In this document: piece by piece, positions 7,655 through 62,812 of the stretch
How positions within the stretch are numbered: the stretch's first letter is position 1
How the letters are laid out: each line of letters opens with the position of its first letter
DNA from: a virus
Lineage: Duplodnaviria; Caudoviricetes
Strand: one strand, 5' to 3'
Length of the DNA stretch: 64,000 bases
Virus record (IMG/VR): IMGVR_UViG_3300043753_000023
Location: 1-64,000 of that record
The notes under the pieces: generated by a model
Database searches by the model: none
The model's input: only the letters and a program-made list of their open reading frames with translations
Told to the model about the DNA's origin: nothing
Position numbers and translations under genes: made by a program

Positions 7655-8790
7655 GGCTGCGCCTCGCTCAGAGGGATCTGGCGGCAGCCGCGAAGTCTGC
7701 GGCCCGCCAGGTCCCGGCGCGGCCGCTGCCGCCGATCCTGGCCGGCGTCCTGCTGGAGGCGGCAGACGACCAGCTGTCCGTGTCGGGCTTCGACTTCGAG
7801 GCCTCGGCGACCGCGATCGTTCCGGCCGACGTGTTGGAGCCGGGCCGGATTGTAGTGCCCGGCAAGCTGCTCGCGGACATCGCCGGGGTGCTGCCGACTG
7901 GTGACGTCGACCTGTTCCTGAACGGCGGCGAGGCGGTCTTCGAGCGCGGCGACGCCAGGTTCACCCTGGCCCTGCTGCCCGTTGGCGAGTATCCGACGCT
8001 GCCGGTGATGCCGCCCGCGTCGGGCACCGTGCCGGGTGATCTGCTCGCTTCTGCGGTCGTACATGCCGCTGGGGCGACCGCGGAATTGAAGGACTCCACC
8101 GGGACACTGTCGGGGATGGCCGGCGTCAACCTGGCTGTCGAGGACGGCTACTTGGTGGTACGGGCAACGGACCGGTACACCGTGGTGGAGCACCACCTGC
8201 CGTGGGATGGCGAGCAGGCGGATGCGGTGACTGTGTCGCCGCGGATCCTGGCCGACGCTGCGCGGGCTACGGCTGGCGGCGACGTGCACCTGTCGCTCGG
8301 CGGCACCCTGCTGGGCGCGGCTGGTGTCGGTTCGTCGGCGGTGGTGCGGACTTTCGCGGATCCGTTTCCGGCAAGGATCTCCGAGGTCTGGCCGAAGGAA
8401 CTGGCGGCCACGCTCGAGATCGACGCCGGGCAGTTGCTGGCCGCAGTGCGCCGGATCGCACTGGTGGCCGAGGGGAGCACGCCGCTGCTGATCGAGGCGA
8501 CAGCGGATTCGCTGGTACTGCAGGCGGCGAATGGCTCGGCGGCACGAGGCCGAGAGCGGATCGACGCGGTGCTGGAAGGCCCGGAGTCGTTCCGGGTCGC
8601 ATTCCAGCCGCGGCGTCTGATGACGGCTCTGGCGCCGCTGTCAGGCCTGCTTCAGGTCGGGCTGACGACGCCGACGCGGCCGGCTGTCTTCCGGTCGGCC
8701 GACGATCCGGACCGGTACCGATGCCTGGTGATGCCGGTGCGGCATGACTGGGTGACCGCCACCCGTCCGCCGGCCCGCGCGGCGGCCTGA
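7651..8790 (+). CDS. dnaN: DNA polymerase III beta sliding clamp homologue
   Basis: 379 aa; RQVPARPLPPILAGVLL...FDFEAS...VVPGKLLADI...EYPTLP...ATDRY...VAFQPRRL...YRCLVMPVR follows the three-domain DnaN pattern. Confidence 0.9.
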   Translation: MRLRLAQRDLAAAAKSAARQVPARPLPPILAGVLLEAADDQLSVSGFDFEASATAIVPADVLEPGRIVVPGKLLADIAGVLPTGDVDLFLNGGEAVFERGDARFTLALLPVGEYPTLPVMPPASGTVPGDLLASAVVHAAGATAELKDSTGTLSGMAGVNLAVEDGYLVVRATDRYTVVEHHLPWDGEQADAVTVSPRILADAARATAGGDVHLSLGGTLLGAAGVGSSAVVRTFADPFPARISEVWPKELAATLEIDAGQLLAAVRRIALVAEGSTPLLIEATADSLVLQAANGSAARGRERIDAVLEGPESFRVAFQPRRLMTALAPLSGLLQVGLTTPTRPAVFRSADDPDRYRCLVMPVRHDWVTATRPPARAAA

Positions 8791-31410: not shown

Positions 31411-32805
31411 TCACACGTCCTGCGTCATGTCGACGAAGCGGCAGTAGTGTCCCTGGAAGGCGACGGTGATCGTGCTGGTCGGGCCCGACCGGTTCTTCGC
31501 GACATGGAAGTCGGCTTCGCCGGCGCGCGGGGACTCCTTCTCGTAGGCGTCCTCGCGGTGCAGCAGGATGATGAGGTCACTGTCCTGCTCGATCGCGCCG
31601 GATTCGCGAAGGTCCGAGGGCTGCGGCTTCCGGTCGCTACGCTTCTCCGCCTCACGGTTCAGCTGCGACAGCGCGATCACCGGGATCTCAAGCTCCTTGG
31701 CGAGCAGCTTGATCGATCGGGAGATCTCCGAGACCTCCTGCTGCCGCGACTCGAACCGCTGCGCGCCGCCGAGCTTTAGCAGCTGCAGGTAGTCGATCAC
31801 GATGCCCTTCAGTTCGACCTCGGAGGCCATCTGACGGGCCTTCGTGCGGATCGACGTCATCGTGAGGTCCGGCGAGTCGTCGATGTAAAGCGGCGCCCCA
31901 GTGATCTCGGGGAGGATCTTGGCGACCTGCGCCCAGTCCCAGTCCGTCATGCCACCCTTGGTCTGCATGTGATGCAACGGCACCCTGCCCTCGGCGGAGA
32001 TCAGCCGCTTGATGACCTCAACCCGGGACATCTCCAAGCTGAAGAATGCCATCCCCAGGCCATGCCTGACGGACGCAGACCGGGCGATGTCCAACCCAGC
32101 CGTCGACTTGCCCATGCCGGGCCGGCCCGCGATCGTGATCATCTGACCGGGGTGCATGCCGCCGGTCAGCGCATCCAGGTCCCGGAAGCCCCACGGCACG
32201 CCCATCGGCACAGTGCCGTCGTTGACCGCCTGGATCGCATCCAGGACGTCGTCAGCGGAATCCCGAACCGGCGCCAGCCCTAGCGCCCGCACGCCGACGT
32301 CGCCGCCCGATGAGGCGCCCATGATCTCAGCTTGGATCGCCTGCACTACCTCCTCCGTGTCCCCCTCGGCGGAGAACACCTGCTGCAGGCCGCGGTTCAG
32401 CGCCACGCCGAGCTCCCGCAGCTTCGCCTTCTCCCGCACGATCACCGCGTAATACTCGGCGTTCGCCGACGACGGCGCGGCCTGGACCAGGCCGTGCAGG
32501 TAGGTGGGGCCGCCGCAGCGCACCAGGTCCCCCGACTTCTCCAGCGCCCGGGCAATGGTGATCGGATCCGCCGCGTCGCCGGCGGCATACAGGGCGACGA
32601 TCGCGTCGTGGATCAGACCATGGGCAGGCCGGTAGTACTCGATGCCACGAAGGCCGGCGCCGAGGGCATCATCGATCGCGCGGGGGTTGATGAGCATCGC
32701 GCCGAGGACGGACTGCTCGGCGCGCAGATCCTGCGGCGGGGTCCGGTCCAGGCCGGTGCCGACGTGGACCGGGGTGTCGTCGGGGTCATCGTAGGTGTCG
32801 TTCAT
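31411..32805 (-). CDS. dnaB: Replicative DNA helicase
   Basis: PPQDLRAEQSVLGAML N-domain; Walker A GRPGMGKS; VIDYLQL; SQLNR; SDLRESGAIEQDSD; KNRSGPT. Confidence 0.98.
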   Translation of the reverse strand: MNDTYDDPDDTPVHVGTGLDRTPPQDLRAEQSVLGAMLINPRAIDDALGAGLRGIEYYRPAHGLIHDAIVALYAAGDAADPITIARALEKSGDLVRCGGPTYLHGLVQAAPSSANAEYYAVIVREKAKLRELGVALNRGLQQVFSAEGDTEEVVQAIQAEIMGASSGGDVGVRALGLAPVRDSADDVLDAIQAVNDGTVPMGVPWGFRDLDALTGGMHPGQMITIAGRPGMGKSTAGLDIARSASVRHGLGMAFFSLEMSRVEVIKRLISAEGRVPLHHMQTKGGMTDWDWAQVAKILPEITGAPLYIDDSPDLTMTSIRTKARQMASEVELKGIVIDYLQLLKLGGAQRFESRQQEVSEISRSIKLLAKELEIPVIALSQLNREAEKRSDRKPQPSDLRESGAIEQDSDLIILLHREDAYEKESPRAGEADFHVAKNRSGPTSTITVAFQGHYCRFVDMTQDV

Positions 32806-35524: not shown

Positions 35525-36277
35525 ATGGCAGCTCAGAGCGACAAGGAGCGACTGAACCGTCAGATCGCCGACCGCATCCGCGCCCAGATCGAGGACGGCA
35601 CGCTGGCGCCAGGCGCCGAGGCGCCCGGCGAGAACGACATCATGCGGGATTACGACGTTTCCCGAACGACGGCCCGCCTCGCGCTTGGCATCCTGAAGTC
35701 CGAAGGTCTCCTTGAGGCAAGGCAGGGAACGAAGACCCGCGTCAGGGCCTTCACGCCCATTCGGCGTAACGCAACGAAGCGCCTAGCCCAGGAGGTATGG
35801 GGCTCTGGGCGGGCCATCTGGGACATCGACGTCCCGGATCGGAGCCACGCGGTCGACGTCGTGGTTGACGAAGTCGACGGCCCCGCCCGCATCCTTCGCG
35901 CCTTCGGGGCAGCCGAAGGGACCCGCTTCTGCCGACGCAGCCGTCGCTTCGTCATAGACGACAAGCCCATCATGTTGGCCGTCTCACACCTCCTGGCGGA
36001 CATGGTGCGCGGCAGTGCAATCATCCAGGTCAATACCGGTGAAGGTGGCAGCTATGCCCGCCTTGCCGATCTCGGGCACCCTCCCAAGCAGTTCCGCGAA
36101 GAGATCCGCGTTCGGATGCCCAGCCCCGACGAGAAGTCCCAACTGGCACTGAGTGCTGGCACACCCGTGATCTGCATTGCCCGCACCGCGGCAACCACCG
36201 ACGGCGCCGTAGTCGAGGTGAACGAGATGATCCTGGACTCGTCGAGCTACCTGCTCGAATACGACTTTTCGGCCTGA
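35525..36277 (+). CDS. GntR/HutC-family (wHTH + UTRA) repressor, KorSA-like
   Basis: RQIADRIRAQIEDGTLAPG...ENDIMRDYDVSRTTARLALGILKSEGLL wHTH followed by a UTRA-like C-domain. Confidence 0.92.
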   Translation: MAAQSDKERLNRQIADRIRAQIEDGTLAPGAEAPGENDIMRDYDVSRTTARLALGILKSEGLLEARQGTKTRVRAFTPIRRNATKRLAQEVWGSGRAIWDIDVPDRSHAVDVVVDEVDGPARILRAFGAAEGTRFCRRSRRFVIDDKPIMLAVSHLLADMVRGSAIIQVNTGEGGSYARLADLGHPPKQFREEIRVRMPSPDEKSQLALSAGTPVICIARTAATTDGAVVEVNEMILDSSSYLLEYDFSA

Positions 36278-40100: not shown

Positions 40101-40201
40101 CTTCGCCCCGGGGCGGCCGCCAGGTCGCCAAACTCATCGGCTGCCCCCGGGCTACATCCGACTAGCAAACCAGGCCAACCCGCCCCACCCAGGAGCCCCC
40201 C

Positions 40202-41563
40202 GTGAACGAGCCCGACCTGTCCGCCGGCTGGCAGCCCATCGGCGACGTCATCGCCGACTCGCGGGCCGCCAGCCAGCGGCCCGAATCGGCCACGGACACG
40301 CGGATCCAGCGCCTCCAAGTCAAGGCAGCCGAGAAGCGCACCGACCGGCACGACGCCGTCAAGACCTGGGCCGAGAAGCGCCAGGTCCGGCGCGACGACC
40401 GTGCCGCCGACCGTGCCGAGCGCCGTCAGGAGAAGGACGAGCGCCGCGCCGATCGGGCTGCCACCCTCGCCCGCACTGGAGCCCGCGCACAGGACGTCCT
40501 GCAGCGGATCATCGTCGTCGGGCCAATCCTTGCCCCGATGGCCGTTGCCTGGACCGGGCAGTCCCGGTTCGCCACACAGATCCTCGGCTGGACGTTCATC
40601 GCGAGCATCCTGTACGCGGCCGCCTACGAGCTCACCACCGTCTACAACGCGTGGCTCTACCACCAGGCCCGCACCGACGGAGACAGCGGCTGGGAGTACC
40701 GGCTCGGCACCTGGATCTTCGCCATCGGCGCTGCGGTCCAACAGTGGTGGCACTACTCAAACCACTGGCACTCGACACCGCGGTCCGTCACCTACTCGAT
40801 CATGTCGATCGTCGGCGTGCTCCTATGGGAGGGCCGGGCCCGTCTCATTCACCGCCGCAAGCTCCGCGCCGACGGCAAGCTCGCGCCGGCCCGCCCCCGG
40901 ATCGGACTGGCCCGCTGGATCCGCTACCCGGTCCGGTCATGGACCGCCTGGTCCCTCATCACCCTCGAAGGCCACCGGACCCTCGATGCGGCGTGGACCG
41001 CCGCCGACGCGCACTTGCGGTCCGAGAGGGACATCCAGGCGGTCCGGGCCTCGGCTCGGCGGTCCGCTCGGGAAGCCCAGCGGACCGAGCGGCTGGACCG
41101 GAAGATGGGCCGGACCGGACCGGAGCAACTGACTGTTCCGGCCCGCACGGACCGCCCCGCGCTCACCGCCGGACCGGACCGGTCCGCCACGGACCAGGCG
41201 CAGGCGGCTGACCGGACCGATGCACCGGACCGCTCCCCTGGAACCGCCAGTGGACCGAACGCCGTGGACCGGTCCACGGCGGCCCGACAGGCGCTGACCA
41301 GCCCGGACCACGGACCGAACGCAGAAAACCAGGCGGACCGCGACAAGCCCTCCCCGGCCAACAGCGGCCCGGACCGGACCGAAGTGGACTTCGCCCTCAA
41401 CGATGTTGAGCGGGAAGCCATCGAGCTCCTGCGGTCCACCAAGCGGTCCATCAGCAAGCGCAACATCGCCGACGCGGTCCGCAACGACTTGGGCCGGTCC
41501 ATCGGATCGGACCGGGCCGCCGAGATTGCCCGCCACTTCCGGACCCTGCGGCCCGCCGCCTAA
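40202..41563 (+). CDS. DUF2637-like (Spd-type) membrane protein with a C-terminal HTH
   Basis: N-terminal coiled coil; about four TM segments (IIVVGPILAPMAVAW...WIFAIGAAVQQWWH...SIVGVLLWE); low-complexity linker; terminal EAIELLRSTKRSISKRNIADAVRNDLGRSIGSDRAAEIARHF. Confidence 0.7.
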   Translation: MNEPDLSAGWQPIGDVIADSRAASQRPESATDTRIQRLQVKAAEKRTDRHDAVKTWAEKRQVRRDDRAADRAERRQEKDERRADRAATLARTGARAQDVLQRIIVVGPILAPMAVAWTGQSRFATQILGWTFIASILYAAAYELTTVYNAWLYHQARTDGDSGWEYRLGTWIFAIGAAVQQWWHYSNHWHSTPRSVTYSIMSIVGVLLWEGRARLIHRRKLRADGKLAPARPRIGLARWIRYPVRSWTAWSLITLEGHRTLDAAWTAADAHLRSERDIQAVRASARRSAREAQRTERLDRKMGRTGPEQLTVPARTDRPALTAGPDRSATDQAQAADRTDAPDRSPGTASGPNAVDRSTAARQALTSPDHGPNAENQADRDKPSPANSGPDRTEVDFALNDVEREAIELLRSTKRSISKRNIADAVRNDLGRSIGSDRAAEIARHFRTLRPAA

Positions 41564-41648
41564 CGGTCCACCACTCCGGTCCGACATCAACTGGACCGGT
41601 CCTCTCCCGCCCACAGAGCAATGCCCCCGGTCCGGTCCGGTCCGGTCC
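40929..41648. repeat. Dense array of GGWCC / CGGWCCG motifs
   Basis: About 40 GGACC/GGTCC copies counted by eye, including tandem (CCGGT)4 at about 41627-41648 beyond the stop codon. Confidence 0.9.
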
Positions 41649-41706
41649 AGTCCGCCCCAGGGCCCCGCCAAATATCAGGCCCCCTCGCCCCGATTGGAGA
41701 CGCACG

Positions 41707-42958: not shown

Positions 42959-43971
42959 TGGCCAGCCAGTTCGCCGTCGCCCGCGCCGAACACTCCGAGG
43001 CCCTGGCTGCATGGAGGGCCCGCTATGCCAAGGCCCGCGACATTAAGGACCCCCAGCAGCGCGCCGCGGCCCTCGAAGCCCTCATGGGGGAGCGGCCTGC
43101 CCACCCCTACCTCGCAGGCATCTCCCTAGCCGCCCTCTTCCACGGCCACCGAGTCCTCCTGGCCCCCCTTAAGGGCTGGCGTAACGACGCCAAGGCCCAG
43201 CACGCCGAGGCCCTGGAAGCATGGCGGGAGCGCCGCGCTGAAGCCCAGAAAATCAAGGACGCGGACCAGCGCGCCAAGGCCCTGGAAGCACTCAAGGGGG
43301 AGAAGCCCACCAGCCCGATGCTGACCGCCATCGGATGCGTCGTCGTAGGGGCCATCGTCGTGGCCCCGATCGCCCATCGGCACGTAGGCACACTGGGCAC
43401 GCTCCTGACCTGGGGGCTCCCCCTGTGGGTGATCGTTGCCCTGATCGCCGGTCAGAAGGCCGGCGCGCCTAAGACCGCCGACGCCCTCGACCAGGAGGAC
43501 GACGACCAGGCCGGGGAGGATCAGGCCGACCAGGACCCCTGCGAGGAGCTCGAACCGGCCGGCCCGACCCCTGCCGTGGTGCACGCCCTGATGGCCTCCG
43601 CGGCGGCCGCTGGGGCCAACATTCTCCTCACCCGGCTGGCCACCGAACTGGCCGCCTCCCACCCCGACTGGGAACCCTCCACCAAGGCCGTCCGTGCCCT
43701 CCTCTCCGAGGCCGGCATCCCGGTCCGGGCGGGGGTGCGCACCCCAGACGGCAACGGGCCTGGCATCCACCACCAGGACGTGCCGCCGCTTCACTCCCCC
43801 TCCGTCCCCGCCCCTGTTCCCGCCGTTGTTGCCAACGTTGGCGCAGGTCAGAGCGCCAACGCCAACGCCAACAACGCCGAGATCCGGGGTGCTGGGGAGG
43901 GGTGCATCTACGTGGCCGACCCCGACAATCCGGCCCGCACGATCATCATCCAGACCAACGCCGCCGCGTGA
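42958..43971 (+). CDS. Membrane protein with duplicated helical repeat and C-terminal soluble domain
   Basis: Internal repeat HSEALAAWRAR...IKDPQQRAAALEALMGERP / HAEALEAWRER...IKDADQRAKALEALKGEKP; two TM helices. Confidence 0.65.
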   Translation: MASQFAVARAEHSEALAAWRARYAKARDIKDPQQRAAALEALMGERPAHPYLAGISLAALFHGHRVLLAPLKGWRNDAKAQHAEALEAWRERRAEAQKIKDADQRAKALEALKGEKPTSPMLTAIGCVVVGAIVVAPIAHRHVGTLGTLLTWGLPLWVIVALIAGQKAGAPKTADALDQEDDDQAGEDQADQDPCEELEPAGPTPAVVHALMASAAAAGANILLTRLATELAASHPDWEPSTKAVRALLSEAGIPVRAGVRTPDGNGPGIHHQDVPPLHSPSVPAPVPAVVANVGAGQSANANANNAEIRGAGEGCIYVADPDNPARTIIIQTNAAA

Positions 43972-44027
43972 TGCCGAGGCCTGGGCAACCCGTCCAGGCC
44001 GCCCCCTTCCCTATCCAGGAGACCCCC

Positions 44028-44474
44028 ATGGACCGCACCGACCAGAACCTCGACGCCGGCATCGCCGACACCCAGTCCGTCATGGGTCGCCTTGAGCAGA
44101 AGGCCACGATCTTCTCTGCCATCAACACGGCTCTCCTCATCGTTCCCGCAAGTCTCGGCCTGGGATCCTGCCCCACCCCGGTTGTTTTGCTCGCCGGGAT
44201 CAGCATCACGATCGTGGTCGCGGCGCTCACGCAAGGGCTGCTCGCAATCCGGCCCTTCCTTGGCGGCTCCGACAGGTCGTCGTTCCCTTGGTGGGCAGAG
44301 GCGGAACCCGCGGAGCTCGACGCCACACTCGCGATGGATAACCGCAAAGCCCAGCTGGTCAACCTGCCGAAGATCTGCATGGGGAAGATGGTCAAACTGC
44401 AGCGGTGCAGCGACTGGACGATCGCCGCCTTCGTGGCGCTTGCCGTCACTGTGATCGCCCGGGCTGCCCTCTGA
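44028..44474 (+). CDS. Pycsar-effector-like (DUF5706/PycTM-type) membrane protein
   Basis: RLEQKATIFSAI-TM-TM-LLAIRPFL...FPWWA...LPKICMGKMVKL-TM pattern. Confidence 0.65.
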   Translation: MDRTDQNLDAGIADTQSVMGRLEQKATIFSAINTALLIVPASLGLGSCPTPVVLLAGISITIVVAALTQGLLAIRPFLGGSDRSSFPWWAEAEPAELDATLAMDNRKAQLVNLPKICMGKMVKLQRCSDWTIAAFVALAVTVIARAAL

Positions 44475-44617
44475 ACTGCCGCCCAGCGGGCCCCGGCTGG
44501 GCGAGCCGCACCGGGCCCGCGCCCTGGCAGTGACATCGGCCAGTCGAGCAGCAGGACTTGCCAACTCGCTCGCGATCAATAACACTAATCCCAACGGCAT
44601 CACTGTGCCTCGAAACG

Positions 44618-44643
44618 AGCCCCGCCCCCGCTGGCGGGGCTTT
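44618..44643 (+). terminator. Stem-loop with short U tract
   Basis: AGCCCCGCC-CCCGCT-GGCGGGGCT-TT. Confidence 0.6.
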
Positions 44644-44664
44644 CGTGCGTCTAGGGGGTGCATC

Positions 44665-44901
44665 GTGGCCCTCGACCTTCGCCTCCTTCACGCAACCCCG
44701 GACCAGCTCGTCGACGTCTTCGAGACCGCACGCTTCTTCGGGGTAAAGCCCGTGACGATCCGCCAGTGGACACGCCTCGGCTACATCACGCCGATCATCC
44801 GGGGCGAACTCGGACGCAACAAGCGCAGCTTGTACTGGCTGCCCGACCTCGTGGCCTACAAGAAACTCCGCGACGGCAAGCCCGAGGCCGCCGCCGCCTG
44901 A
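44665..44901 (+). CDS. MerR-like HTH protein upstream of the packaging genes
   Basis: LVDVFETARFFGVKPVTIRQWTRLGYITP. Confidence 0.75.
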   Translation: MALDLRLLHATPDQLVDVFETARFFGVKPVTIRQWTRLGYITPIIRGELGRNKRSLYWLPDLVAYKKLRDGKPEAAAA

Positions 44902-46418: not shown

Positions 46419-47996
46419 ATGGCGCGCCGCTCCGCATTCACCGTCCTCGCCGACCAGTTGGAAGACTCCACCGCCAACCAGGCCCGCGCTGCGGACTACG
46501 CTGCCGACCCGGCACTGTGGGCCCGGGAGAAGCTCGGCGAACACTTCTGGTCCAAGCAGGTCGAGATCGCCGACTCGGTCCGCGACAACCGACTGACTGC
46601 CGTGCAGAGTTGCCACGGCGTAGGGAAGTCCTGGACCGCGTCGCGTCTCACCGCCTGGTGGCTGGACATCCACCCGCCCGGCGAAGCCCGCGTCGTTACC
46701 ACCGCCCCCACCGGCGACCAGGTCAAGGCGATCCTCTGGTCTGAGATCAACGCCGCCTTCGCAACAGCGGCAGCCCGCGGCAACCCGCTTCCGGGCCGGA
46801 TCAACGAGACGGACTGGAAGCTCGGCAAGCGGCTGATCGCCTTCGGCCGCAAGCCCAGCGACTACAATCCGCACGCCTTCCAAGGCATCCACGCCAGGTA
46901 CGTCCTTGTAGTGCTCGACGAGGCCTGCGGCATCAACAAGCAGTTCTGGGTGGCCGCCCAAGCGATCGCCACCGGCGAGCACTGCCGGATTCTCGCCATC
47001 GGCAACCCCGACGACCCTGGATCCCAGTTCGCCAAGGTCTGCGCGAACGACCGCTGGAACACCATCCGGATCTCCGCGTTCGACACGCCGAACTTCACAG
47101 GCGAGCCGGTTCCCGATGACCTCAAACCGATGCTCGTCTCGCACGCCTACGAGCACGACATGCGCACCGAGTTCGGCGAGCATGCCCCCACCTACATCTC
47201 CAAGGTGCTCGGCCAGTTCCCCCACGACGCCGACGACGGCGTGGTACGACTCTCCGCCGTCCGCGCCTGCGCGCTACCTCCCTCCACGCCACTGCTCTAT
47301 ACCGACCTGACGCCAGTGCAGTTGGGCGTCGACCTAGGCGCCGGCGGCGACGAAACCGTCATCCGGGAACGCCGCGGCATGCGGGTCGGCCGCGAATGGC
47401 GCAGCCGCGAGAAGGACCCGACCAAGGTTGTCGATGTGATCGTCGCGGCGATCCGCGACTCCAAGGCCACTGTGGTGAAGGTCGACTCCATCGGCATCGG
47501 CTGGGGCATCGTCGGCACGCTGCGGGAACGCCGCGCGAAGGGCGAGCACGACGCCGACATCATCGGCGTCAACGTGAGCGAAGCCAGCACCGAGCCCGAG
47601 AAGTTCGGCCGCCTACGCTCCCAAATCTGGTGGCAAGTTGGCCGGCAACTCTCCGAAGACCGCGGCTGGGACCTGTCCGAGCTTGACGAGGACGACCGGG
47701 AACGCCTGGTGTCCCAACTGACCGCCCCCAAGTACTCGCTGGACGCTGCCGGGCGGATCGTCGTCGAGCCCAAGCCCGAGACGAAGAAGCGCATCGGCCG
47801 CAGCCCCGACAATGCCGACGCCCTGCTCCTCGCGTTTTACGCGGGCTCCGGGTCTGACGCACACGCCTGGATCAACCACTTGCAGCGCAAGGTCGGTGCC
47901 GACGCCGACACGGCACCCGAGGCAACATCCGCTTCGCCGGCCCCCGCCGATGCCCTGGCCGCAGCCCGGCACAACGCCTACCGACAGCAGCGCTAA
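46419..47996 (+). CDS. terL: Terminase large subunit
   Basis: Walker A AVQSCHGVGKSW; Walker B VLVVLDEA; nuclease LGVDLG...D, VDSIGIG, SPDNADA. Confidence 0.95.
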   Translation: MARRSAFTVLADQLEDSTANQARAADYAADPALWAREKLGEHFWSKQVEIADSVRDNRLTAVQSCHGVGKSWTASRLTAWWLDIHPPGEARVVTTAPTGDQVKAILWSEINAAFATAAARGNPLPGRINETDWKLGKRLIAFGRKPSDYNPHAFQGIHARYVLVVLDEACGINKQFWVAAQAIATGEHCRILAIGNPDDPGSQFAKVCANDRWNTIRISAFDTPNFTGEPVPDDLKPMLVSHAYEHDMRTEFGEHAPTYISKVLGQFPHDADDGVVRLSAVRACALPPSTPLLYTDLTPVQLGVDLGAGGDETVIRERRGMRVGREWRSREKDPTKVVDVIVAAIRDSKATVVKVDSIGIGWGIVGTLRERRAKGEHDADIIGVNVSEASTEPEKFGRLRSQIWWQVGRQLSEDRGWDLSELDEDDRERLVSQLTAPKYSLDAAGRIVVEPKPETKKRIGRSPDNADALLLAFYAGSGSDAHAWINHLQRKVGADADTAPEATSASPAPADALAAARHNAYRQQR

Positions 47997-48015
47997 ACGA
48001 CGGGGGGCTGCCGGG

Positions 48016-50286
48016 ATGGTCGACCCCCGCCGCATTGCCAAAACCTACGGGGAGCCCGCCCCCATGGCGGCCGGCGAAGCGGCCGCGCGGATGACGCCGA
48101 CGTCGCCCTTCTCGCCCGGCGCGCCGATCAACCCGTACGACGGCTACTCGCGGACCCCGCGAGTGCAGGAGTACGTGCCCGGTTACAACATCTCGGCGAG
48201 GCCCCGCTCCCATGAGCGGGTGTCGTTCGAGACGCTGCGTGGGCTGGTCAACTCCTACGACGTTGCGCAGATGTGCATCTGGCATCGGATCGACTCGATC
48301 CGGTCGTTGGACTGGTCGCTCGTCGCGGCCCCGCACTTCGACGGGGACGTCACCGATGCAGTCCGGGTCGGCATGGCGGTGCTGTCCAAGCCGGATGGTC
48401 GGACGCCATTCAGCACGTGGCTGTCGTCGTACCTGTACGACATCCTCGCCTATGATGCCGGCGCGCTCTACCGGCTGCGGAATCGTCGCGGAGATGCGAT
48501 CGGGCTGCTGAACGTGGACGGCACCACCATCGCGCCGCTCCTCGACTACTGGGGCCGTCCTCCCGCCGCGGCCGCACCCGGGGAACCCGAGCCGGAAGCC
48601 TTCGTCCAGTACATCAACGGCCTGAGCTGGAACTGGTTGACCCTCAGCGACCTGATCTACCAGCCGTTTCGGAAGAAGAATGACTCCCCGTACGGGCTGT
48701 CTCCGCTTGAGACCATCCTGCTCAATGCCAACACCGACATTCGGTTTCAGGTCTACTTCCTGCAGCGATTCACCGAGGGCAACATCCCGGAGGCCTTCGC
48801 GTCAGCCCCCGAGTCGTGGTCACCCGACCAGATCGAGCAGTGGCAAGGCCTCTGGGACTCGTTCATGTCCGGCGACCAGGCCCAGAAGCACACCATCAAG
48901 TGGCTTCCCAGCGGGTCGACGATCGCATGGTCGAACGAGAAGGACTTCACAGACGCGTTCTCGCTGTTCTTGATGCGCAAGACCGCCGCGGCCTATCACG
49001 TGGTACCGAGTGACTTGGGGTTCACCGAGACCGTCAACCTGTCCTCCTCCGAGAGCCAGGCCGACGTGCAGCACCGCGTCGGCGACCTGCCGCTGATCCG
49101 GCACGTCCAAGGGGTTCTGACCCGCTTTCTGCAGGACGATCTCGGGTTGCCGCTCGAGTTCCTCTGGGACCTGGGCGAAGAGCAGGCCGACCGCCTCCAG
49201 CAGGCTCAGGCTGACCTGATCTATATGAACTCGGGCGTGATCGGGGCCAGCGACATCCGCGAGATGCGCTACGGCCTGGCCGAGCCGGCAGGCGTGCCCG
49301 TGCCGCGGTTCATCTTCACCGAGCGATCCGGTCCGATCCCGCTCGCCAGCCTGTACGCGCTGGCCGGTCAAATCGACTCGGCCTCCGCGGCCCCGCTGCC
49401 GGGCGCCCAGTTGCCGCACGCCGCGTTCACCGCGGCCGAGGGTGTCGTCCCGAACCCGCCCGTCCTGACCGCACCCCTTGCCGAGCAGGAGTACGGGCCG
49501 TCCGCGATCCCGCCCACACCGCAACCCCCGGCCCCCGAGGCCCCGGTCGGCAAGGACGCCGGGGCGCTGACGGCCGGGATCACGACCGCGACTGGGATCA
49601 CCGGGTATGACCTCGTTGGCCGGCGCGAGGACGACGAGGGTGACGAGCCAGAGGCGGACCAGCAGCGGTTGGCCAAAACTGAGCTTGCGGCGTTCCGAAA
49701 GTTCGCCAAAGCCCGCCGCCGCGCCGGACGTTGGCGGGACTTCGAGTTCCGGCATGCCGACCCCGTTGACGCCCGACGGTTCAACCAGGGCGGCCAGCTC
49801 GCGGTCCGCAAGGACGCCGGACAGATTGCGGTTGCCGGGCTTGCCGTGATGGCAGCCGACACCGGCCGCGTCCTCATGCTGCAGCGATGCCTCGGCCCTG
49901 AGGATCCTGCTGGCGGAACCTTCGAATTCCCCGGCGGTCACCTCGAGGATGATGAGACACCGCTGATGGGCGCCTGGCGGGAGTGGGCAGAGGAGACCGG
50001 ATGCGTCCCGCCGCCTGGCGTGCAGACCGGCACGTGGACGAGTCCGGACGGCATCTATCAGGGCATCGTCTGGACTGTCGACTCCGAGGCCTTCGTGCCC
50101 GTACGCGGCGATCGGGAGATTTCCAACCCAGATGACCCGGACGGCGACCAGGTCGAAGCGATCGCCTGGTGGGACCCGGCGCAGCTCGACGACAACCCGG
50201 CAGTACGTCCCGAACTGCTCGCGTCGCTACCCAACGTCCTTGTCGCTCTCGGCCGTGCGCCCGACGACGAGACCCCCAACGCATAG
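48016..50286 (+). CDS. Portal protein with a C-terminal Nudix hydrolase domain
   Basis: Portal-like YGLSPLE, TAAAYHVVPSDLGF, PLIRHVQGVLT; Nudix box G-x5-E-x7-REWAEETG at 49936-50001. Confidence 0.85.
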   Translation: MVDPRRIAKTYGEPAPMAAGEAAARMTPTSPFSPGAPINPYDGYSRTPRVQEYVPGYNISARPRSHERVSFETLRGLVNSYDVAQMCIWHRIDSIRSLDWSLVAAPHFDGDVTDAVRVGMAVLSKPDGRTPFSTWLSSYLYDILAYDAGALYRLRNRRGDAIGLLNVDGTTIAPLLDYWGRPPAAAAPGEPEPEAFVQYINGLSWNWLTLSDLIYQPFRKKNDSPYGLSPLETILLNANTDIRFQVYFLQRFTEGNIPEAFASAPESWSPDQIEQWQGLWDSFMSGDQAQKHTIKWLPSGSTIAWSNEKDFTDAFSLFLMRKTAAAYHVVPSDLGFTETVNLSSSESQADVQHRVGDLPLIRHVQGVLTRFLQDDLGLPLEFLWDLGEEQADRLQQAQADLIYMNSGVIGASDIREMRYGLAEPAGVPVPRFIFTERSGPIPLASLYALAGQIDSASAAPLPGAQLPHAAFTAAEGVVPNPPVLTAPLAEQEYGPSAIPPTPQPPAPEAPVGKDAGALTAGITTATGITGYDLVGRREDDEGDEPEADQQRLAKTELAAFRKFAKARRRAGRWRDFEFRHADPVDARRFNQGGQLAVRKDAGQIAVAGLAVMAADTGRVLMLQRCLGPEDPAGGTFEFPGGHLEDDETPLMGAWREWAEETGCVPPPGVQTGTWTSPDGIYQGIVWTVDSEAFVPVRGDREISNPDDPDGDQVEAIAWWDPAQLDDNPAVRPELLASLPNVLVALGRAPDDETPNA

Positions 50287-58693: not shown

Positions 58694-61600
58694 ATGGCCG
58701 AGGGCTTCCGGATCGCTACGGCGTTTGTGCAGGTCAGTCCCGACACTGAGGGCTTCCGCGAGGAACTGCAGGCCAAGCTCGACGAGTCCGCCGCTGGCAC
58801 ACGGACCAGGGTGAGGGTCGGCCTCGACACGACCGACCTGGACGCTGGCGCCGACAGGGCCCGCGCCAGGGTCGACGAACTCGGCTCCCGCACCGCGCGC
58901 CCAACCGTCCGCCTTGAGGACGGGGAAGCAGCCGCGAAGATCGATGCGATCCGGGAGCGGCTGGGCACCCTGTCGGCCTCCAACCCGTCACCGCGGGTCC
59001 GGGCCGACATCTCGGACGCCGAGGCGAAGGTCCAGGCGATCGAGGCGCGGATCGGCCGCCTGAACTCGGTCGTGGCGCGGCCTGCGGTCACCCCGCAGAT
59101 GATGGCGGCGCAGGCCCAGATCGACCGCCTCACAGCCCGGCTGGAGGAGTTGGGGCAGAAGAAGGCATCCCCGAGGGTCACTGCGGATACTGCGGCAGCG
59201 CAGGCCCGCATCGACGTTCTCCGGGCACGATTGAACGACCTGCAGGCCAAGGACGTCCAGATCCGGGTCAAGGCCGGCGCGGACCTTGTGCGCGCCGAAG
59301 CCGACCTGGACCGGGTGGCGGCCAAGTTGAGCGACGCCGGACGCAAGGACGCCAAGCCGAAGCTGAGCCTGAACGATTCCGACTTCCAGTCGAAGCTGAG
59401 CTCGGCCCTGTCACGGCTGCGAGAGTTCGGCGCGGAATCTGCGAAGGTCGGCGCCATCGCGGTCGGCGTCGGCAGCCTCCTGCCAGCCGTAGGTGGGGCT
59501 GCCATCGGCGGCGGCCTCCTTGCCGGCGTCGGGGCGCTGGGTCTCGGCGGGATCAGTAAGGCCGTCAGCGACGCGCACCAGGCGAGCCTGAATGTCGGGA
59601 TCACGCCACAGCAGCAGGCCGCTACCGCATTCAGCAACGCGGTGGCCGTGCAGCAGGGGCAGGACCAGATCGGTCAGGCCCGTCGGCAGGCCGCGCAGGA
59701 TGCCATCACGAGCGCCAACTCGATCCAGCAGGCGCAAACGAACCTGGCCTCGGTCGAGCGAAATGCCGCCCAGCAGCAGGTGCAGGCCCTGCAGTCCGTC
59801 AAGCAGGCCGAGCAGGGCGTTGAGGAGGCCAACTACAGCTTGAGTGAGGCGCAGTACAACCTCACGCAGGCATGGGAGGCAGCGCGGGAGCAAGTCCGGC
59901 AGCTGGACGACCAGCTCGCTGACTCGAAGCTCAACGTGCAGCAGGCCGAGCTGGCGATCCAACAGGCCGAATACCAGCAGCGGCTGGTCAACCAGAACGC
60001 CTACTCCACCTCCCTGGATAGGCAGCAGGCGGCCCTCGCCGTTGCTCAGGCGCAGCAGCGACTGACCGACGCCCAGGACCAGCAGACCTCGTCTGCCTAC
60101 GCGGCGAACTTGGCTCACCAGCAGGGCGTTGCCGGGTCGCAGCAGGTCGTCCAGGCCCAGCAGGCCGTTACGGCGGCCCAGTACGGGCAGGCGGACGCGC
60201 ACGCGCAGCTGTCGGATGCGCAGGCGCAGGCAACGCTCGGCCAGCTCAACAATGCGGACCAGCTGAAGGCCGCGCAGATGCAGTTGGCCGCCGCATCGGA
60301 GCAGGCCGCCTATCAGCGGCAGCAGGATGCCCACAGCATCGCAGTTGCCGAGCGGAACCTGACAGACACGATCCGGGAACAGCAGCTGCAGCTCGCGGCG
60401 ACGCAGTCCACCGAGAACCAGGCCGCGAACCAGTTCGCCCGCGACATGGGTCGGTTGACGCCGGCGGCCCAGCAGGTCGTACAACAGATCCTCGGCATGA
60501 AGGGCTCCTTCAAGCAGTTGACGGACACCGCGCAGACGGCGATCGCCCCTGGGGTGACGGAGTTTCTGCGCGGGCTCCAGTCGATGCTGCCAAGCATCCT
60601 GCCAGCAGTGTCCCAGGTGGGCGGCCTGCTCTCCGGCATGTTCAGCGGCCTGGGCAAAGCAATGCAGTCGAGCGGGGCGAAGGACGTCCTCCAGGGCCTG
60701 GTCGACAACGGCCTGCAGATTGCCAAGACCCTGGGGCCGGCACTGGGTGGGATCGCGGGGGCGCTGGCGAACATCGGGTCGCAGAAGGGTGCCGCCGACG
60801 GGCTGTCGTCTCTGATCGGCGGGCTTGGTGCTGGGCTAACGAACCTGGTCAATGGATTGTCGCCGTTCGTTGGCGCACTAAGCGGCCTGCTGCAGCCGCT
60901 CGGGCAGGCCCTGGCTCCGCTGGGCGGTGCGATCGGAACGCTTGTCGGGCATTTGGCGGAATCGCTCGCGCCAGTTCTAGAGAAACTAATTCCACCGGCC
61001 TCGAAATTCATCTCAGAATTGGCTCAAGGCCTGGCTCCTATTCTAGATTCGCTAGGGCCATTGCTACAGCCCGTAGTTGAAGCTTTGTCTGCGATCTTCT
61101 CGGCATTCGGCCCTTTGCTGCCCGTCATAGGTTCATTGATAGGTCAGTTGGCGAAATCTTTGGCCCCAATTCTGCAGGCTTTGGTTCCAATTATCCAGTC
61201 GGTCGCAGATATGCTGGCAAAAGAGTTGCAAAAGGGCCTGACCGAAATGCTGCAAGCCCTACTGCCACTATTCCCCCCCCTGGCTCAGTTGATCGTTTCC
61301 TTGACGCCGATCATCGATGTCGTGGTCAAGCTGGCAGGGTTCATCTTGGACTTGGCCCTCAAGATCCAGGTGCCGCTGACCCAGGCAATCGTGTGGATCA
61401 TCACGAAGTTCGCCGACCTAGCCTCCCACTGGCAAGGCGCGGTGCACGACATCGAGGCCGGTGCCGACTGGCTGTGGCACCACGTCTTCGAGCCGCTCTG
61501 GTCAGGCCTGTCGCAGGGAGCCGACCAGTTCGTCTCGGATTTCGGGAAGGCCTGGTCCGGTCTTCAGGACGTTTTCAAACTGCCCGTCAACTTCCTGATC

Positions 61601-62812
61601 GAGAGCGTCTACACGGACGGCATCGAAGCTTTGTGGAATGGCGTCGTCAACGCTATCGGGCAGAAGAGCATTGCTCTGCCCGACATTAAGAAGCTGGCCA
61701 CCGGTGGTGTGCTGCCCGGGTACGCACCGGGCCAGGACACCATCCCGGCAATGCTCTCCCCCGGCGAGGGCGTGCTCGTGCCGGAGGCCGTCCGGGCATT
61801 GGGGCCGGAGACCGTGTTGGCGTTGAACGCGGCCTACGGCGGCGGCCGGGTCTCGACTCCTGGCCACTTCAGCGGTGGCGGGATCAGCGGCTTCCTCGGA
61901 TCCGTCGTGAACGACATCTCCGGCGCGATCACCAAGGGCACGGACGTCGCAAAGATCATCGCGGCCGTCACGACCGGCGACACTTCCGGCCTGAACGACG
62001 CGCTCGGCAAGTTCATCGACACGAAGGGCGCCGCCGGGAACTACGCCAAACTGATGCTGGGCATCCCGACCGCGCTGGTGCACGATGCGGTCGGGGCGAT
62101 CGGCAGCATGTTCGGCGGGGGTGGCGGCAGCAACGGCAAGCTGCCGACTGGCAGTTCCAGCGCAGTCGGCGATCTGCCGGCCAACTGGCAGACGATCGCG
62201 TCCTTCCTGGCAGGGCACGGCTTCAGTCAGTACGCCGCGGCCGGCGTGGCGGGCAACATCATGGCGGAGAGCGGCGGGGATCCCGAGATCCTTGAGGCTG
62301 GGGGTGGTGGCGGTGGCGGTCTGATCCAGTGGACGCCGTACCCGCGCAGCTACATCACTGGTGACTACCAGTCGGACCTGATGACGCAGCTGAACGCCAT
62401 CCTGTCGTGGGGTGGTGGCCCGGCGCAGGTCAACCGGGCCACCTCGCCGAGCAGTGCCGCGGAGATCTACCAGGATCTATACGAACGCCCGGCAAGCCTG
62501 ACGGCATCCCTGCCGCAGCGCATGTCCTCGGCTAACGCGGTGGCCAAGGGCATGAACTGGGCTTTCGATGAGGGCGGTCTCGCCAGCGGCATCGGATCGC
62601 TGCCGAAGTACACGCCTCGCCCGGAGAGGGTGCTGTCCCCGCGGCAGACCCAGGCATTCGAGCGACTTGTTGCTGTCCTTGACCGCCAGTCTGCGACCGA
62701 CGGCAGCTCGGCGGCGGGCAAGCAGGTCGTGATCCACTTCCACGGCACACAGCACCCGACGCCCGAGCAGATGGCCGCGATCAAGCGGGAGATGGCACTT
62801 GCGCTCGGCTAG
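58694..62812 (+). CDS. Tape measure protein with C-terminal tail-lysozyme domain
   Basis: 1372 aa, A/Q-rich helical; FRIATAFVQVSP start; FLAGHGFSQYAAAGVAGNIMAESG...GLIQWT lysozyme motif. Confidence 0.93.
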   Translation: MAEGFRIATAFVQVSPDTEGFREELQAKLDESAAGTRTRVRVGLDTTDLDAGADRARARVDELGSRTARPTVRLEDGEAAAKIDAIRERLGTLSASNPSPRVRADISDAEAKVQAIEARIGRLNSVVARPAVTPQMMAAQAQIDRLTARLEELGQKKASPRVTADTAAAQARIDVLRARLNDLQAKDVQIRVKAGADLVRAEADLDRVAAKLSDAGRKDAKPKLSLNDSDFQSKLSSALSRLREFGAESAKVGAIAVGVGSLLPAVGGAAIGGGLLAGVGALGLGGISKAVSDAHQASLNVGITPQQQAATAFSNAVAVQQGQDQIGQARRQAAQDAITSANSIQQAQTNLASVERNAAQQQVQALQSVKQAEQGVEEANYSLSEAQYNLTQAWEAAREQVRQLDDQLADSKLNVQQAELAIQQAEYQQRLVNQNAYSTSLDRQQAALAVAQAQQRLTDAQDQQTSSAYAANLAHQQGVAGSQQVVQAQQAVTAAQYGQADAHAQLSDAQAQATLGQLNNADQLKAAQMQLAAASEQAAYQRQQDAHSIAVAERNLTDTIREQQLQLAATQSTENQAANQFARDMGRLTPAAQQVVQQILGMKGSFKQLTDTAQTAIAPGVTEFLRGLQSMLPSILPAVSQVGGLLSGMFSGLGKAMQSSGAKDVLQGLVDNGLQIAKTLGPALGGIAGALANIGSQKGAADGLSSLIGGLGAGLTNLVNGLSPFVGALSGLLQPLGQALAPLGGAIGTLVGHLAESLAPVLEKLIPPASKFISELAQGLAPILDSLGPLLQPVVEALSAIFSAFGPLLPVIGSLIGQLAKSLAPILQALVPIIQSVADMLAKELQKGLTEMLQALLPLFPPLAQLIVSLTPIIDVVVKLAGFILDLALKIQVPLTQAIVWIITKFADLASHWQGAVHDIEAGADWLWHHVFEPLWSGLSQGADQFVSDFGKAWSGLQDVFKLPVNFLIESVYTDGIEALWNGVVNAIGQKSIALPDIKKLATGGVLPGYAPGQDTIPAMLSPGEGVLVPEAVRALGPETVLALNAAYGGGRVSTPGHFSGGGISGFLGSVVNDISGAITKGTDVAKIIAAVTTGDTSGLNDALGKFIDTKGAAGNYAKLMLGIPTALVHDAVGAIGSMFGGGGGSNGKLPTGSSSAVGDLPANWQTIASFLAGHGFSQYAAAGVAGNIMAESGGDPEILEAGGGGGGGLIQWTPYPRSYITGDYQSDLMTQLNAILSWGGGPAQVNRATSPSSAAEIYQDLYERPASLTASLPQRMSSANAVAKGMNWAFDEGGLASGIGSLPKYTPRPERVLSPRQTQAFERLVAVLDRQSATDGSSAAGKQVVIHFHGTQHPTPEQMAAIKREMALALG

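What the first reader, a model, noticed from the sequence alone, without database searches (positions are those of the whole stretch)
40202..41660. Membrane-HTH gene carrying about 40 GGWCC motifs in its own 3' end: candidate self-contained DNA-to-membrane tether or centromere
Seen: about 40 GGACC/GGTCC copies (many CGGWCCG) between 40929 and 41648; a rough expectation at 70% GC is about 3. They fall in different reading frames (cgg acc = RT, gac cgg = DR, gga ccg = GP) and continue past the stop codon as (CCGGT)4, so selection looks DNA-level. Orientation is polarised: mostly GGACC at 41080-41380 and mostly GGTCC at 41430-41650. The protein has about four TM helices plus a terminal HTH. Established: Streptomyces TraB binds arrays of short TRS repeats at clt, and a pIJ101 Spd-family protein binds a short palindromic motif. 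Inference: this protein binds the array in its own gene and anchors the replicon to the membrane, for segregation or spreading along hyphae.
Basis: partly seen in the sequence, partly recalled or inferred. Interest (0 to 1): 0.85.

Follow-up and report, generated by a model that had tools for sequence, protein, structure and literature searches.

The report
Membrane protein gene carrying own docking sites
A temperate Streptomyces-type phage has a membrane protein with a small DNA-binding tail, and about 40 copies of the DNA word YGGACCG are written into the end of that protein's own gene; relatives on plasmids and phages change the word whenever the tail changes, so the gene most likely holds the sites by which the protein ties its own DNA to the cell membrane.

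Summary
There are 41 GGACC/GGTCC copies at 40930-41648 (54 per kb), against 2.7 per kb in the rest of the 90.5-kb phage genome. It is the only such cluster, and the extended word is YGGACCG.

The signal is at the DNA level:
- With the amino-acid sequence fixed, codon resampling gives 13.9 +/- 3.0 copies against 37 observed in the gene.
- The rare GGA glycine codon is used 38% of the time here against 4% elsewhere in the phage.
- The word falls in every reading frame and on both strands.
- Eight copies lie beyond the stop codon.

The gene encodes a DUF2637 protein with four membrane helices, a roughly 100-residue disordered linker and a confidently predicted C-terminal three-helix bundle.

About 80 homologous loci on Streptomyces and Kitasatospora plasmids, integrated elements and phages carry an array at the same place. 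The word matches the tail type one-to-one in 73 intact loci (GGACC, GAACC or GAGAC), and switches occur many times on the membrane-domain tree. The word does not follow the neighbouring TraB pump's recognition helix. This phage has no TraB, no ParB, and an integrase.

Best reading (about 0.6): the protein's own tail reads the array and forms a multivalent tether between DNA and membrane. Binding itself is untested. The scan reached the same conclusion earlier on another genome (e1-5887835). I found no description in the papers searched.

The parts
40202..41563 (+). Gene for a 453-aa DUF2637 membrane protein with a C-terminal three-helix tail. It starts at GTG, with AGGAG 6 nt upstream at 40191-40195.
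   Evidence: ORF and translation. GC3 is 0.88. Pfam PF10935 scores 24.8 bits against a cut-off of 22.8. It matches phrog_10376. 130 homologues were found.
40298..40513 (+). N-terminal charged long helix (aa 33-104) that runs straight into the first membrane helix. It is probably a cytoplasmic coiled coil.
   Evidence: The AlphaFold2 model has a single helix over residues 33-128 with pLDDT 78-95. The coiled-coil reading and the topology are inferences.
40514..40870 (+). Four-helix membrane domain (aa 105-223), the DUF2637 core and the most conserved part of the family.
   Evidence: Predicted helices 33-128, 132-158, 164-185 and 193-223. Invariant columns in alignments A1 and A2.
40907..41107 (+). 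Basic cytoplasmic helices after the membrane domain (aa 236-302). The array begins here.
   Evidence: Predicted helices 236-241, 243-256 and 261-302. First motif copies at 40930-41095. In this conserved stretch, type-A genes spell PVRSWTAWS with GGTCC/GGACC codons.
41108..41401 (+). Disordered linker (aa 303-400), rich in GP, DR and RT. This is the densest part of the array and is mostly GGACC.
   Evidence: pLDDT is below 50. Length and sequence vary between homologues, but GPDR(T/S) words recur. It holds 17 GGACC and 2 GGTCC.
41402..41548 (+). C-terminal three-helix bundle (aa 401-449), the presumed helix-turn-helix. The putative recognition helix is SDRAAEIARHFRTL.
   Evidence: pLDDT is about 96 in the full model and 90 in the domain model. 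The fold resembles DNA-binding three-helix domains only weakly, at Z 4-5.
40930..41648 (.). Array of 41 GGWCC cores (consensus YGGACCG) on both strands, with irregular spacing. A 5-bp step is the commonest gap.
41564..41660 (.). Non-coding tail of the array: 8 copies after the stop codon, including (CCGGT)4 at 41627-41648.
   Evidence: No terminator-like site was found there on the + strand.
35525..36277 (+). GntR/UTRA regulator of the TraR/KorA kind. It is the only other gene of this region shared with the plasmid modules that carry homologues of the DUF2637 gene, and it may regulate this region.
   Evidence: Pfam GntR and UTRA. It is 48% identical to regulators upstream of the homologues in loci L015 and L061. 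A GntR/UTRA gene holds the same position in L097, L099 and L100. The regulatory link is an inference.

Best explanation
The gene 40202-41563 encodes an integral membrane protein. It has a cytoplasmic N-terminal helix, four membrane helices of the DUF2637 type, a flexible linker of about 100 residues and a C-terminal helix-turn-helix. About 41 copies of the 7-bp word YGGACCG are overprinted on the 3' half of the gene and on the 100 bp after it.

Proposed mechanism:
- The helix-turn-helix binds one short asymmetric word as a single domain.
- Many membrane-held copies on long linkers engage the dense array at once. This gives a high-avidity attachment of this one locus, and so of the phage DNA, to the cytoplasmic membrane.

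In plasmids and integrated elements the same cassette sits at the head of the TraB/Spd transfer-and-spread operon. The likely job there is to bring the element's own DNA to the membrane or septal DNA-transfer site. In this phage the cassette has been kept without any pump. It would then position or hand over phage DNA in the hyphae, possibly to a host or co-resident translocase.

Shown:
- the array exists and is unique in the genome;
- it is under DNA-level selection;
- it is conserved in place across homologues;
- word and tail type change together;
- the word is independent of TraB.

Inferred:
- the tail binds the word;
- the topology places the tail in the cytoplasm;
- the protein is multivalent;
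- the physiological role.
For: 1. DNA-level selection.
- Codon resampling gives z of about 7.6-7.9 in this gene and z of 4.5-13.7 in 15 homologues.
- GGA makes up 38% of Gly codons here against 4% in the phage.
- The word occurs in all frames and on both strands, and 8 copies lie past the stop.

2. Same place in relatives. Arrays run from just after the membrane domain to a little past the stop codon in loci L004-L100.

3. Specificity classes.
- Tail type A ([ST]I[AG][ST][DE]RA) goes with GGACC in 46 loci.
- Type B (K[TS]TA[HY][HK]RL) goes with GAACC in 20 loci.
- Type C ([KR]S[TS]A[AG]KRL) goes with GAGAC in 7 loci.
- There is no exception among intact tails.
- The membrane-domain tree needs about 10 class switches, and starred branches force at least 3-5 per class (quick tree).

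4. Nearest case of a switch. L099 has a membrane domain grouping next to this phage's (its protein P0022 is 69% identical), but it has a type-B tail and 38 GAACC copies.

- L099 and L100 have TraB proteins 62% identical, with the same winged-helix recognition stretch ARKTVEN, yet carry GAACC and GGACC arrays.
- Elements that share GGACC have unrelated TraB C-termini.
- This phage has no TraB, TraA-like or other partner gene.

6. Structure. The tail is a confident three-helix bundle. The type-B tail gives sub-threshold TetR_N, IclR and MarR helix-turn-helix hits.

7. Lead within one fold. A 124-aa ORF after the L099 gene has a type-A-like fold with SNQR in place of [ST]DR, and it sits in the GAACC array.

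8. Precedent. SpdB2 of pSVH1 has the same architecture, is oligomeric and binds dsDNA, and its homologues on actinophages were proposed to help phage DNA spread (PMC4447253).
Against: - No binding experiment exists.
- The array and the tail-coding DNA are physically the same segment, so any recombination carries both together. The one-to-one match is therefore expected in part from linkage alone.
- Fold matches of the tail are generic: Z 4-5 to DNA-binding domains, and the best match (Z 6.7) is a ribosomal stalk dimerisation domain.
- Homology to the studied SpdB of pIJ101 could not be shown, and pIJ101 spdB carries no array.
- Hiyaa-type phage homologues have the tail fold but only a weak array, if any.
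- In L099 two different tail folds lie within one GAACC array, so which one reads it is open.
- The phage integrates, so a tether is not needed for inheritance.
Confidence: 0.6

Rival explanations
1. The array is a clt-type transfer site read by a TraB/FtsK-type translocase supplied in trans by a co-resident plasmid, an integrated element or the host. The phage DNA would then be pumped between hyphal compartments. The membrane protein would be only an accessory.
For: - In plasmids, integrated elements and Hiyaa-like phages the homologous gene lies 2-4 genes upstream of a TraB/FtsK-like gene.
- Known clt loci are clusters of short repeats read by TraB's winged helix (PMC4447253, PMC3583192).
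- The same CGGACCG word is shared by many unrelated Streptomyces plasmids, so a pump supplied in trans is conceivable.
Against: - There is no translocase gene anywhere in the phage.
- The word does not follow TraB's recognition helix.
- Known clt loci have 3-9 direct repeats in 50-175 bp (PMC3583192). This array has 41 copies in both orientations over 720 bp.
Confidence: 0.12
2. The words are read by some other factor. This could be a conserved host nucleoid or segregation protein, or another phage protein. The match with the tail type would then reflect only physical linkage.
For: - The tail-coding DNA and the array overlap, so they are co-inherited.
- The GGACC word is kept across tails only about 40% identical to each other.
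- For sps, a conserved host partner was proposed (PMC4170104).
Against: - At least three different words occur within single host genera (Streptomyces, Kitasatospora), each tied to one tail type. A conserved host reader cannot explain this.
- No other gene accompanies the cassette into this phage apart from the GntR regulator.
Confidence: 0.12
3. The array is a set of replication-origin iterons placed inside a gene, as the lambda origin lies inside gene O. The membrane protein would act as an origin-binding factor.
For: A DnaB helicase gene lies 5-8 kb upstream on the opposite strand in the phage, in the prophage L096 and in the plasmid L094.
Against: - There is no A+T-rich unwinding stretch; the region is 72% G+C.
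- The GC skew shows no turning point at the array.
- In plasmids the gene belongs to the tra/spd operon.
Confidence: 0.04
4. There is no cis function. The words would be a by-product of a repeated GPDRT-like peptide, or of pentanucleotide slippage.
For: - (GGACC)n encodes GPDRT in every frame, and the linker is rich in these residues.
- With the amino-acid sequence fixed, resampling still gives 13.9 copies, about four times background.
- A (CCGGT)4 tandem lies after the stop.
Against: - The codon-level excess is z 7.6-7.9, and the rare GGA codon is used.
- Copies also lie inside the conserved folded tail and the conserved post-membrane helices, on both strands, and in non-coding DNA.
- About 80 loci keep the array, with three different words.
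Confidence: 0.03

Closest known systems
SpdB2 of Streptomyces venezuelae plasmid pSVH1, and SpdB of pIJ101 (spread proteins)
   Same: - The architecture matches: an N-terminal coiled-coil region, four membrane helices and a cytoplasmic C-terminal domain.
- SpdB2 is oligomeric, binds dsDNA and is needed for spread within the mycelium.
- Homologues on actinophages were proposed to help phage DNA spread (PMC4447253).
- Pfam 38.1 names a C-terminal 'HTH_SpdB_C' domain. Some Atlas clusters combine it with DUF2637 (a lead only).
   Different: - SpdB2's DNA binding was reported as non-specific.
- No array is known in its gene, and pIJ101 spdB has none.
- Profile comparison with pIJ101 SpdB shows no significant similarity.
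- This phage has no traB or other spd genes.
clt loci with TraB recognition repeats (pSVH1 8-bp TRS, pJV1, pWTY27, pIJ101)
   Same: Both are clusters of a short word that mark one place on a Streptomyces mobile element for a membrane-bound DNA-handling protein, often overlapping the end of a gene (PMC3583192, PMC4447253).
   Different: - clt has 3-9 direct repeats in 50-175 bp, read by the translocase's winged helix.
- Here there are 41 copies on both strands over 720 bp.
- The word follows the DUF2637 tail rather than TraB.
- No translocase is present.
SpdA2 / sps of pIJ101 (Thoma et al. 2014, PMC4170104)
   Same: A Streptomyces plasmid DNA-binding protein whose specific sites lie inside its own coding sequence. 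The sites could be removed by synonymous changes, and they affect segregational stability.
   Different: - SpdA proteins are small (117-163 aa) and have an N-terminal DNA-binding region.
- sps is a 12-bp palindrome present 1-3 times and is nearly the same on all plasmids.
- The sps palindrome is absent from this genome, and the proteins are unrelated.
Partition sites inside partition genes, and lambda ori inside gene O (from my own knowledge, not checked here)
   Same: Binding sites for a protein are embedded in that protein's own gene, which keeps reader and site linked.
   Different: - Those have a few long sites and soluble readers.
- Here there are dozens of 7-bp words and a membrane-anchored reader.
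- This phage has no ParB_N domain.
phi29 p16.7 (from my own knowledge, not checked here)
   Same: A phage membrane protein with a C-terminal DNA-binding domain that holds phage DNA at the membrane.
   Different: p16.7 binds DNA without sequence specificity and has a single membrane helix. No site array is involved.

Membership tests
DUF2637 (Pfam PF10935) | Match to the family profile above the curated cut-off | tested here: met
   24.8 bits against a cut-off of 22.8, residues 110-255. Homologues are named 'DUF2637 domain-containing protein' by NCBI.
SpdB/SpdB2 spread proteins | Integral membrane protein with four membrane helices, an N-terminal coiled coil and a cytoplasmic C-terminal domain | tested here: met
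   The AlphaFold2 model has a long helix at 33-128, helices 132-158, 164-185 and 193-223, and then cytoplasmic parts. These features of SpdB2 are taken from PMC4447253.
SpdB/SpdB2 spread proteins | Sequence homology to a studied member (pIJ101 SpdB; Pfam SpdB_N / HTH_SpdB_C) | tested here: inconclusive
   hhalign probability is below 1%. The local Pfam copy lacks PF27079 and PF27080. The Atlas lists neighbouring clusters with HTH_SpdB_C at scores 0.84-0.87, which is a lead only. pSVH1 SpdB2 itself could not be fetched.
SpdB/SpdB2 spread proteins | Encoded in a tra/spd operon beside traB | tested here: not met
   No FtsK/TraB or other partner gene is present in the 90.5-kb phage. The feature is met in homologous loci on plasmids and integrated elements.
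SpdB/SpdB2 spread proteins | Required for intramycelial spreading; forms pores; binds dsDNA | not testable with these tools
   This needs genetics and biochemistry.
[quoted passage not shown] | Cluster of short repeats on the element | tested here: met
   41 copies of a 5-7-bp word. The cluster is far larger than described clt loci and has both orientations (PMC3583192).
[quoted passage not shown] | Read by the element's TraB/Tra translocase winged helix | tested here: not met
   There is no translocase in this genome. In relatives the word does not follow TraB's recognition helix.
[quoted passage not shown] | Needed in cis for conjugal transfer | not testable with these tools
   This needs mating assays.
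SpdA / sps | Small SpdA protein and the 12-bp palindrome CGTCACGTGACG in or beside its gene | tested here: not met
   The palindrome is absent from the whole genome. The protein here is 453 aa and membrane-bound. SpdA features are taken from PMC4170104.
ParABS-type centromere | ParB-family reader encoded on the replicon | tested here: not met
   There is no ParB_N match. The phage carries a large serine recombinase instead.

The most novel reading that the evidence does not exclude
DUF2637-HTH genes are modular 'self-addressed' cassettes.
- Each is a membrane anchor plus an exchangeable DNA-reading tail.
- The tail's recognition word is overprinted 30-70 times on the cassette's own coding sequence.
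- Reader and address therefore always travel together among plasmids, integrated elements and phages.

In this phage the cassette would work without any conjugative pump. It would tether or route phage DNA at hyphal membranes or cross-walls. That would be a particle-independent way of placing phage DNA in a mycelium, or a way of taking over a resident element's transfer machinery.
Probability: 0.3. Interest if true: 0.85.

Novelty: new variant of a known kind. Interest (0 to 1): 0.7.

Why it matters
How Streptomyces plasmids, and possibly phages, move and place double-stranded DNA inside a compartmented mycelium is still poorly understood. TraB and its clt site explain entry into the recipient. 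The role of the Spd membrane proteins in spreading is unclear, and their DNA binding was thought to be non-specific.

This finding suggests that a large family of Spd-like membrane proteins are sequence-specific readers. Their sites, and at least three specificities (GGACC, GAACC, GAGAC), can be read straight from the sequence.

That makes the question testable with simple tools: gel shifts, ChIP, synonymous recoding and tail swaps. The result would be a natural, orthogonal set of short-word DNA-to-membrane tethers.

It is also a striking case of dense overprinting of a DNA code on a protein code. The protein's linker sequence appears to be shaped largely by its own binding sites.

The phage copy lacks any pump, so it isolates the tether from the transfer machinery.

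Tried and rejected
- Near-identical phage genomes: no match by megablast in the phage collection.
- SpdA/sps as the family: rejected. SpdA is a small soluble protein with a 12-bp palindrome that is absent here.
- Homology to pIJ101 SpdB: not significant. pIJ101 spdB has no word array.
- pSVH1 record: not found under the accession I tried.
- Fold search with the whole model: nothing at E <= 0.001.
- Fold search with the tail model: only generic three-helix matches. Foldseek E was at least 0.2. VIA Z was 4-5 for ArgR, Fur, MYB and FtsK-gamma, and 6.7 for ribosomal P1.
- Pfam on the isolated tails: no match for types A and C. Type B gave only sub-threshold helix-turn-helix hits.
- Homodimer prediction of residues 30-305: no verdict, score 0.01. 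This says nothing either way.
- Helical phasing of sites: none found. Only the 5-bp step stands out. The orientation split in the pooled part of that script was wrongly computed and is not used.
- GC skew as an origin marker: it follows the transcription direction only.
- Promoter and terminator scan: nothing useful.
- Longer repeats: only the short word recurs.
- Restriction-site reading (GGWCC is the AvaII-type site and CGGWCCG the RsrII-type site, from my own knowledge): rejected, because sister classes use the non-palindromic words GAACC and GAGAC.
- Secondary clusters of the word elsewhere in the phage: none.
- Downstream partner genes of relatives (TraA-like, the 661-aa to 796-aa proteins, small ORFs): no homologue in this phage.
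- P0017 could not be located on a contig.
- Literature searches for DUF2637, GGACC repeats and SpdB2 in phages: no description of such arrays.
Full report
**What the window is.**
- The window is the first 64 kb of a 90,496-bp virus record with 127-bp terminal repeats.
- It is about 69% G+C.
- It carries a terminase, a portal, a tape measure protein, a DnaB helicase and a DNA polymerase III beta clamp.
- Outside the window it carries a large serine recombinase.
- It has no tyrosine integrase and no ParB.
- It is therefore an integrating temperate tailed phage of a Streptomyces-like host.

**The observation.**
- I count 41 GGACC/GGTCC between 40930 and 41648, which is 54 per kb. The rest of the whole genome has 2.7 per kb.
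- Aligning the copies gives the 7-bp word YGGACCG.
- Outside the array the 7-mer is not enriched and forms no second cluster.
- Copies fall in all three reading frames and on both strands.
- Eight copies lie after the stop codon, including (CCGGT)4.
- The orientation bias is real: the linker part has 17 GGACC and 2 GGTCC, and the end has 3 and 11.
- Homologues do not share this polarity. I read it as a coding constraint. GGACC spells G-P, D-R and R-T, which suit a disordered linker. GGTCC spells R-S and V-R, which occur in the folded tail.

**Is it just amino-acid composition?**
- Partly, but not entirely.
- With the protein sequence fixed and codons drawn from the phage's own usage, the gene would hold 13.9 +/- 3.0 copies (maximum 24 in 2000). 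It holds 37.
- A synonymous shuffle within the gene gives 18.0 +/- 2.9.
- Shuffling codon order in the C-terminal part gives 5.6 against 33 observed.
- GGA makes up 38% of glycine codons here against 4% in other phage genes.
- The protein sequence itself also looks shaped by the word.

**The protein.**
- It is 453 aa with a good ribosome-binding site.
- Pfam places residues 110-255 in DUF2637.
- The AlphaFold2 model built on 66 homologues shows, in order:
  - a long N-terminal helix running into the first of four membrane helices;
  - basic helices up to residue 302;
  - a disordered stretch at 303-400;
  - a three-helix bundle at 401-449 with pLDDT about 96.
- The bundle modelled alone has pLDDT 90.
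- Its structural neighbours are generic. Winged-helix and helix-turn-helix DNA-binding domains score Z 4-5 (ArgR, Fur, MYB, transposase HTH, FtsK gamma). A ribosomal stalk domain scores Z 6.7.
- The fold is compatible with DNA binding but does not prove it.
- With four membrane helices and basic residues after the fourth, both ends should be cytoplasmic. This is an inference.

**Relatives.**
- The protein has over a hundred homologues.
- They occur on 72 plasmid records, mostly large linear Streptomyces plasmids.
- They also occur in chromosomal integrated elements and prophages and in Hiyaa-like Streptomyces phages.
- In plasmids and integrated elements the usual gene order is as follows:
  - a GntR/UTRA repressor gene;
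  - several small genes;
  - the DUF2637 gene;
  - small genes;
  - a gene for a protein of about 700 aa;
  - a gene for a protein of about 124 aa;
  - a TraB/FtsK-like translocase gene.
- This phage shares only the GntR regulator (35525-36277, 48% identical) and the DUF2637 gene.
- No homologue of the translocase or of any other partner exists anywhere in its 90.5 kb.

**The array is a family trait and comes in several 'languages'.**
- In about 80 fetched loci, an array starts just after the membrane domain and ends a little after the stop codon.
- A de novo k-mer search shows three strong words: CGGACCG, CGAACCG/GCGAACC and CGAGACC. Each has 20-60 copies.
- All pass codon resampling (z 4.5-13.7) and occur in several frames and on both strands.
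- The word matches the type of C-terminal tail without exception in 73 intact loci: 46 type A with GGACC, 20 type B with GAACC and 7 type C with GAGAC.
- Three GGACC loci have frameshifted tails.
- Ten Hiyaa-type tails (…IATKRA…) have no strong array. Pooled, they show only a two-fold excess of GATC, which is a weak lead.
- On a tree of the membrane domain the classes are interleaved and about ten switches are needed. This was a quick tree, and starred branches force at least 3-5 switches per class.
- The 3' cassette (linker, tail and array) therefore moves between membrane-domain lineages.

**Who reads the array?**
- The nearest switch is L099, from a Kitasatospora chromosome. Its membrane domain groups next to this phage's, and its protein P0022 is 69% identical. 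Its tail is type B and it has 38 GAACC copies.
- Its neighbour in the tree, L100, has a type-A tail and GGACC.
- The two elements' TraB proteins are 62% identical and share the winged-helix recognition stretch ARKTVEN.
- Their DUF2637 proteins are 64% identical up to about residue 293 and unrelated after that.
- Conversely, elements that share the GGACC word have unrelated TraB C-termini.
- The word therefore follows the DUF2637 tail, not TraB.
- Together with the absence of any pump in this phage, this argues against the clt reading.
- A caveat applies. The tail-coding DNA and the array are the same piece of DNA, so linkage alone gives some of this match.
- Two points go beyond linkage:
  - In the conserved post-membrane helices, type-A genes spell the same residues with GGTCC/GGACC codons. 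L099 does not, and it has GCGAACC instead.
  - A 124-aa ORF after the L099 gene has a type-A-like fold in which [ST]DR has become SNQR, and it lies in the GAACC array. This is one case, so it is only a lead.

**Comparison with what is known.**
- TraB reads 8-bp repeats at clt. Described clt loci hold 3-9 repeats in 50-175 bp (PMC4447253, PMC3583192).
- SpdA2 of pIJ101 binds a 12-bp palindrome inside its own gene and affects stability (PMC4170104). It is a small, unrelated, soluble protein, and its palindrome is absent here.
- SpdB2 of pSVH1 has the same architecture as this protein. It is oligomeric, forms pores and binds dsDNA, reportedly without specificity. Its phage homologues were proposed to help phage DNA spread (PMC4447253).
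- I could not show sequence homology to pIJ101 SpdB, and pIJ101 spdB has no array.
- The Atlas lists neighbouring clusters that combine DUF2637 with Pfam's 'HTH_SpdB_C' (a lead only).
- I therefore file the protein as a DUF2637 member that works like an Spd-type spread protein. Its added feature is a sequence-specific tail whose sites are overprinted on its own gene.

**Earlier notes of this scan.**
- Other agents saw the same kind of array on other genomes. One reached the same conclusion for a CGGWCCG array on a plasmid-phage (e1-5887835). Another did so for GAACC arrays (e1-5680211).
- One note read a GGWCC array beside traB as a possible clt (e1-3410941).
- My tests here were made independently on this window and on loci I fetched.
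- The main addition here is that the phage has no pump, plus the TraB dissociation test.

**Verdict.**
A self-read array tethering DNA to the membrane is the best reading (about 0.6).
- A centromere role is unlikely in an integrating phage.
- The physiological role (spread, positioning or hand-over to a translocase) remains open.
- I found no description of such arrays in the papers searched.
- I rate it a new variant of a known kind, with interest 0.7.

Noticed in passing
window 47812-50286: The portal protein ORF carries a C-terminal NUDIX hydrolase domain (residues 677-799, E 5e-15). The listed ORF start overlaps the terminase gene by about 185 nt, so the true start is probably later.
   Followed up: no
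window 58694-62812: The 1372-aa tape measure protein has an embedded phage tail lysozyme domain (PF18013, residues 1164-1285).
   Followed up: no
window 7651-8790 and 31411-32805: The phage encodes its own DNA polymerase III beta clamp and a DnaB-type replicative helicase. A DnaB gene lies in the same relative position, 5-8 kb upstream on the opposite strand, in prophage L096 and linear plasmid L094.
   Followed up: partly
G000 C1 about 81.7-82.0 kb (outside the window; locus L101): A large serine recombinase lies in a 546-aa open frame on the - strand. No tyrosine integrase or ParB is present, so the phage is probably integrating.
   Followed up: partly
L001-L003, L012 (Streptomyces phages Galactica, Hiyaa, Keanu): The Hiyaa-like phages have a DUF2637 homologue with the same tail fold (…IATKRA…) but no strong array, and a FtsK-like translocase 2-3 genes downstream. 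Within the gene, GACCCCGG(A) occurs 4-6 times and resembles the pSVH1 TraB word GACCCGGA. GATC is about two-fold enriched across such tails.
   Followed up: partly
L099:9290-9664: A 124-aa ORF overlaps the stop of the Kitasatospora DUF2637 gene. It ends in a type-A-like three-helix tail with SNQR in place of [ST]DR, and it lies inside the GAACC array. It looks like the remnant of a cassette replacement and is a natural recognition-helix variant.
   Followed up: partly
L039, L047, L049: Three plasmid-type homologues keep the GGACC array, but their tails read out of frame. They are either frameshifted pseudogenes or assembly errors.
   Followed up: no
window 43902-44474 and 44530-44901: A 190-aa ORF has a weak sub-threshold match to the Pycsar effector membrane domain (PycTM, E 0.0017). 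A 123-aa MerR/excisionase-like helix-turn-helix ORF lies between the finding and the terminase genes.
   Followed up: no
window 61001-62000: There is a local drop in G+C to 60% inside the tape measure gene region, against about 69% elsewhere.
   Followed up: no
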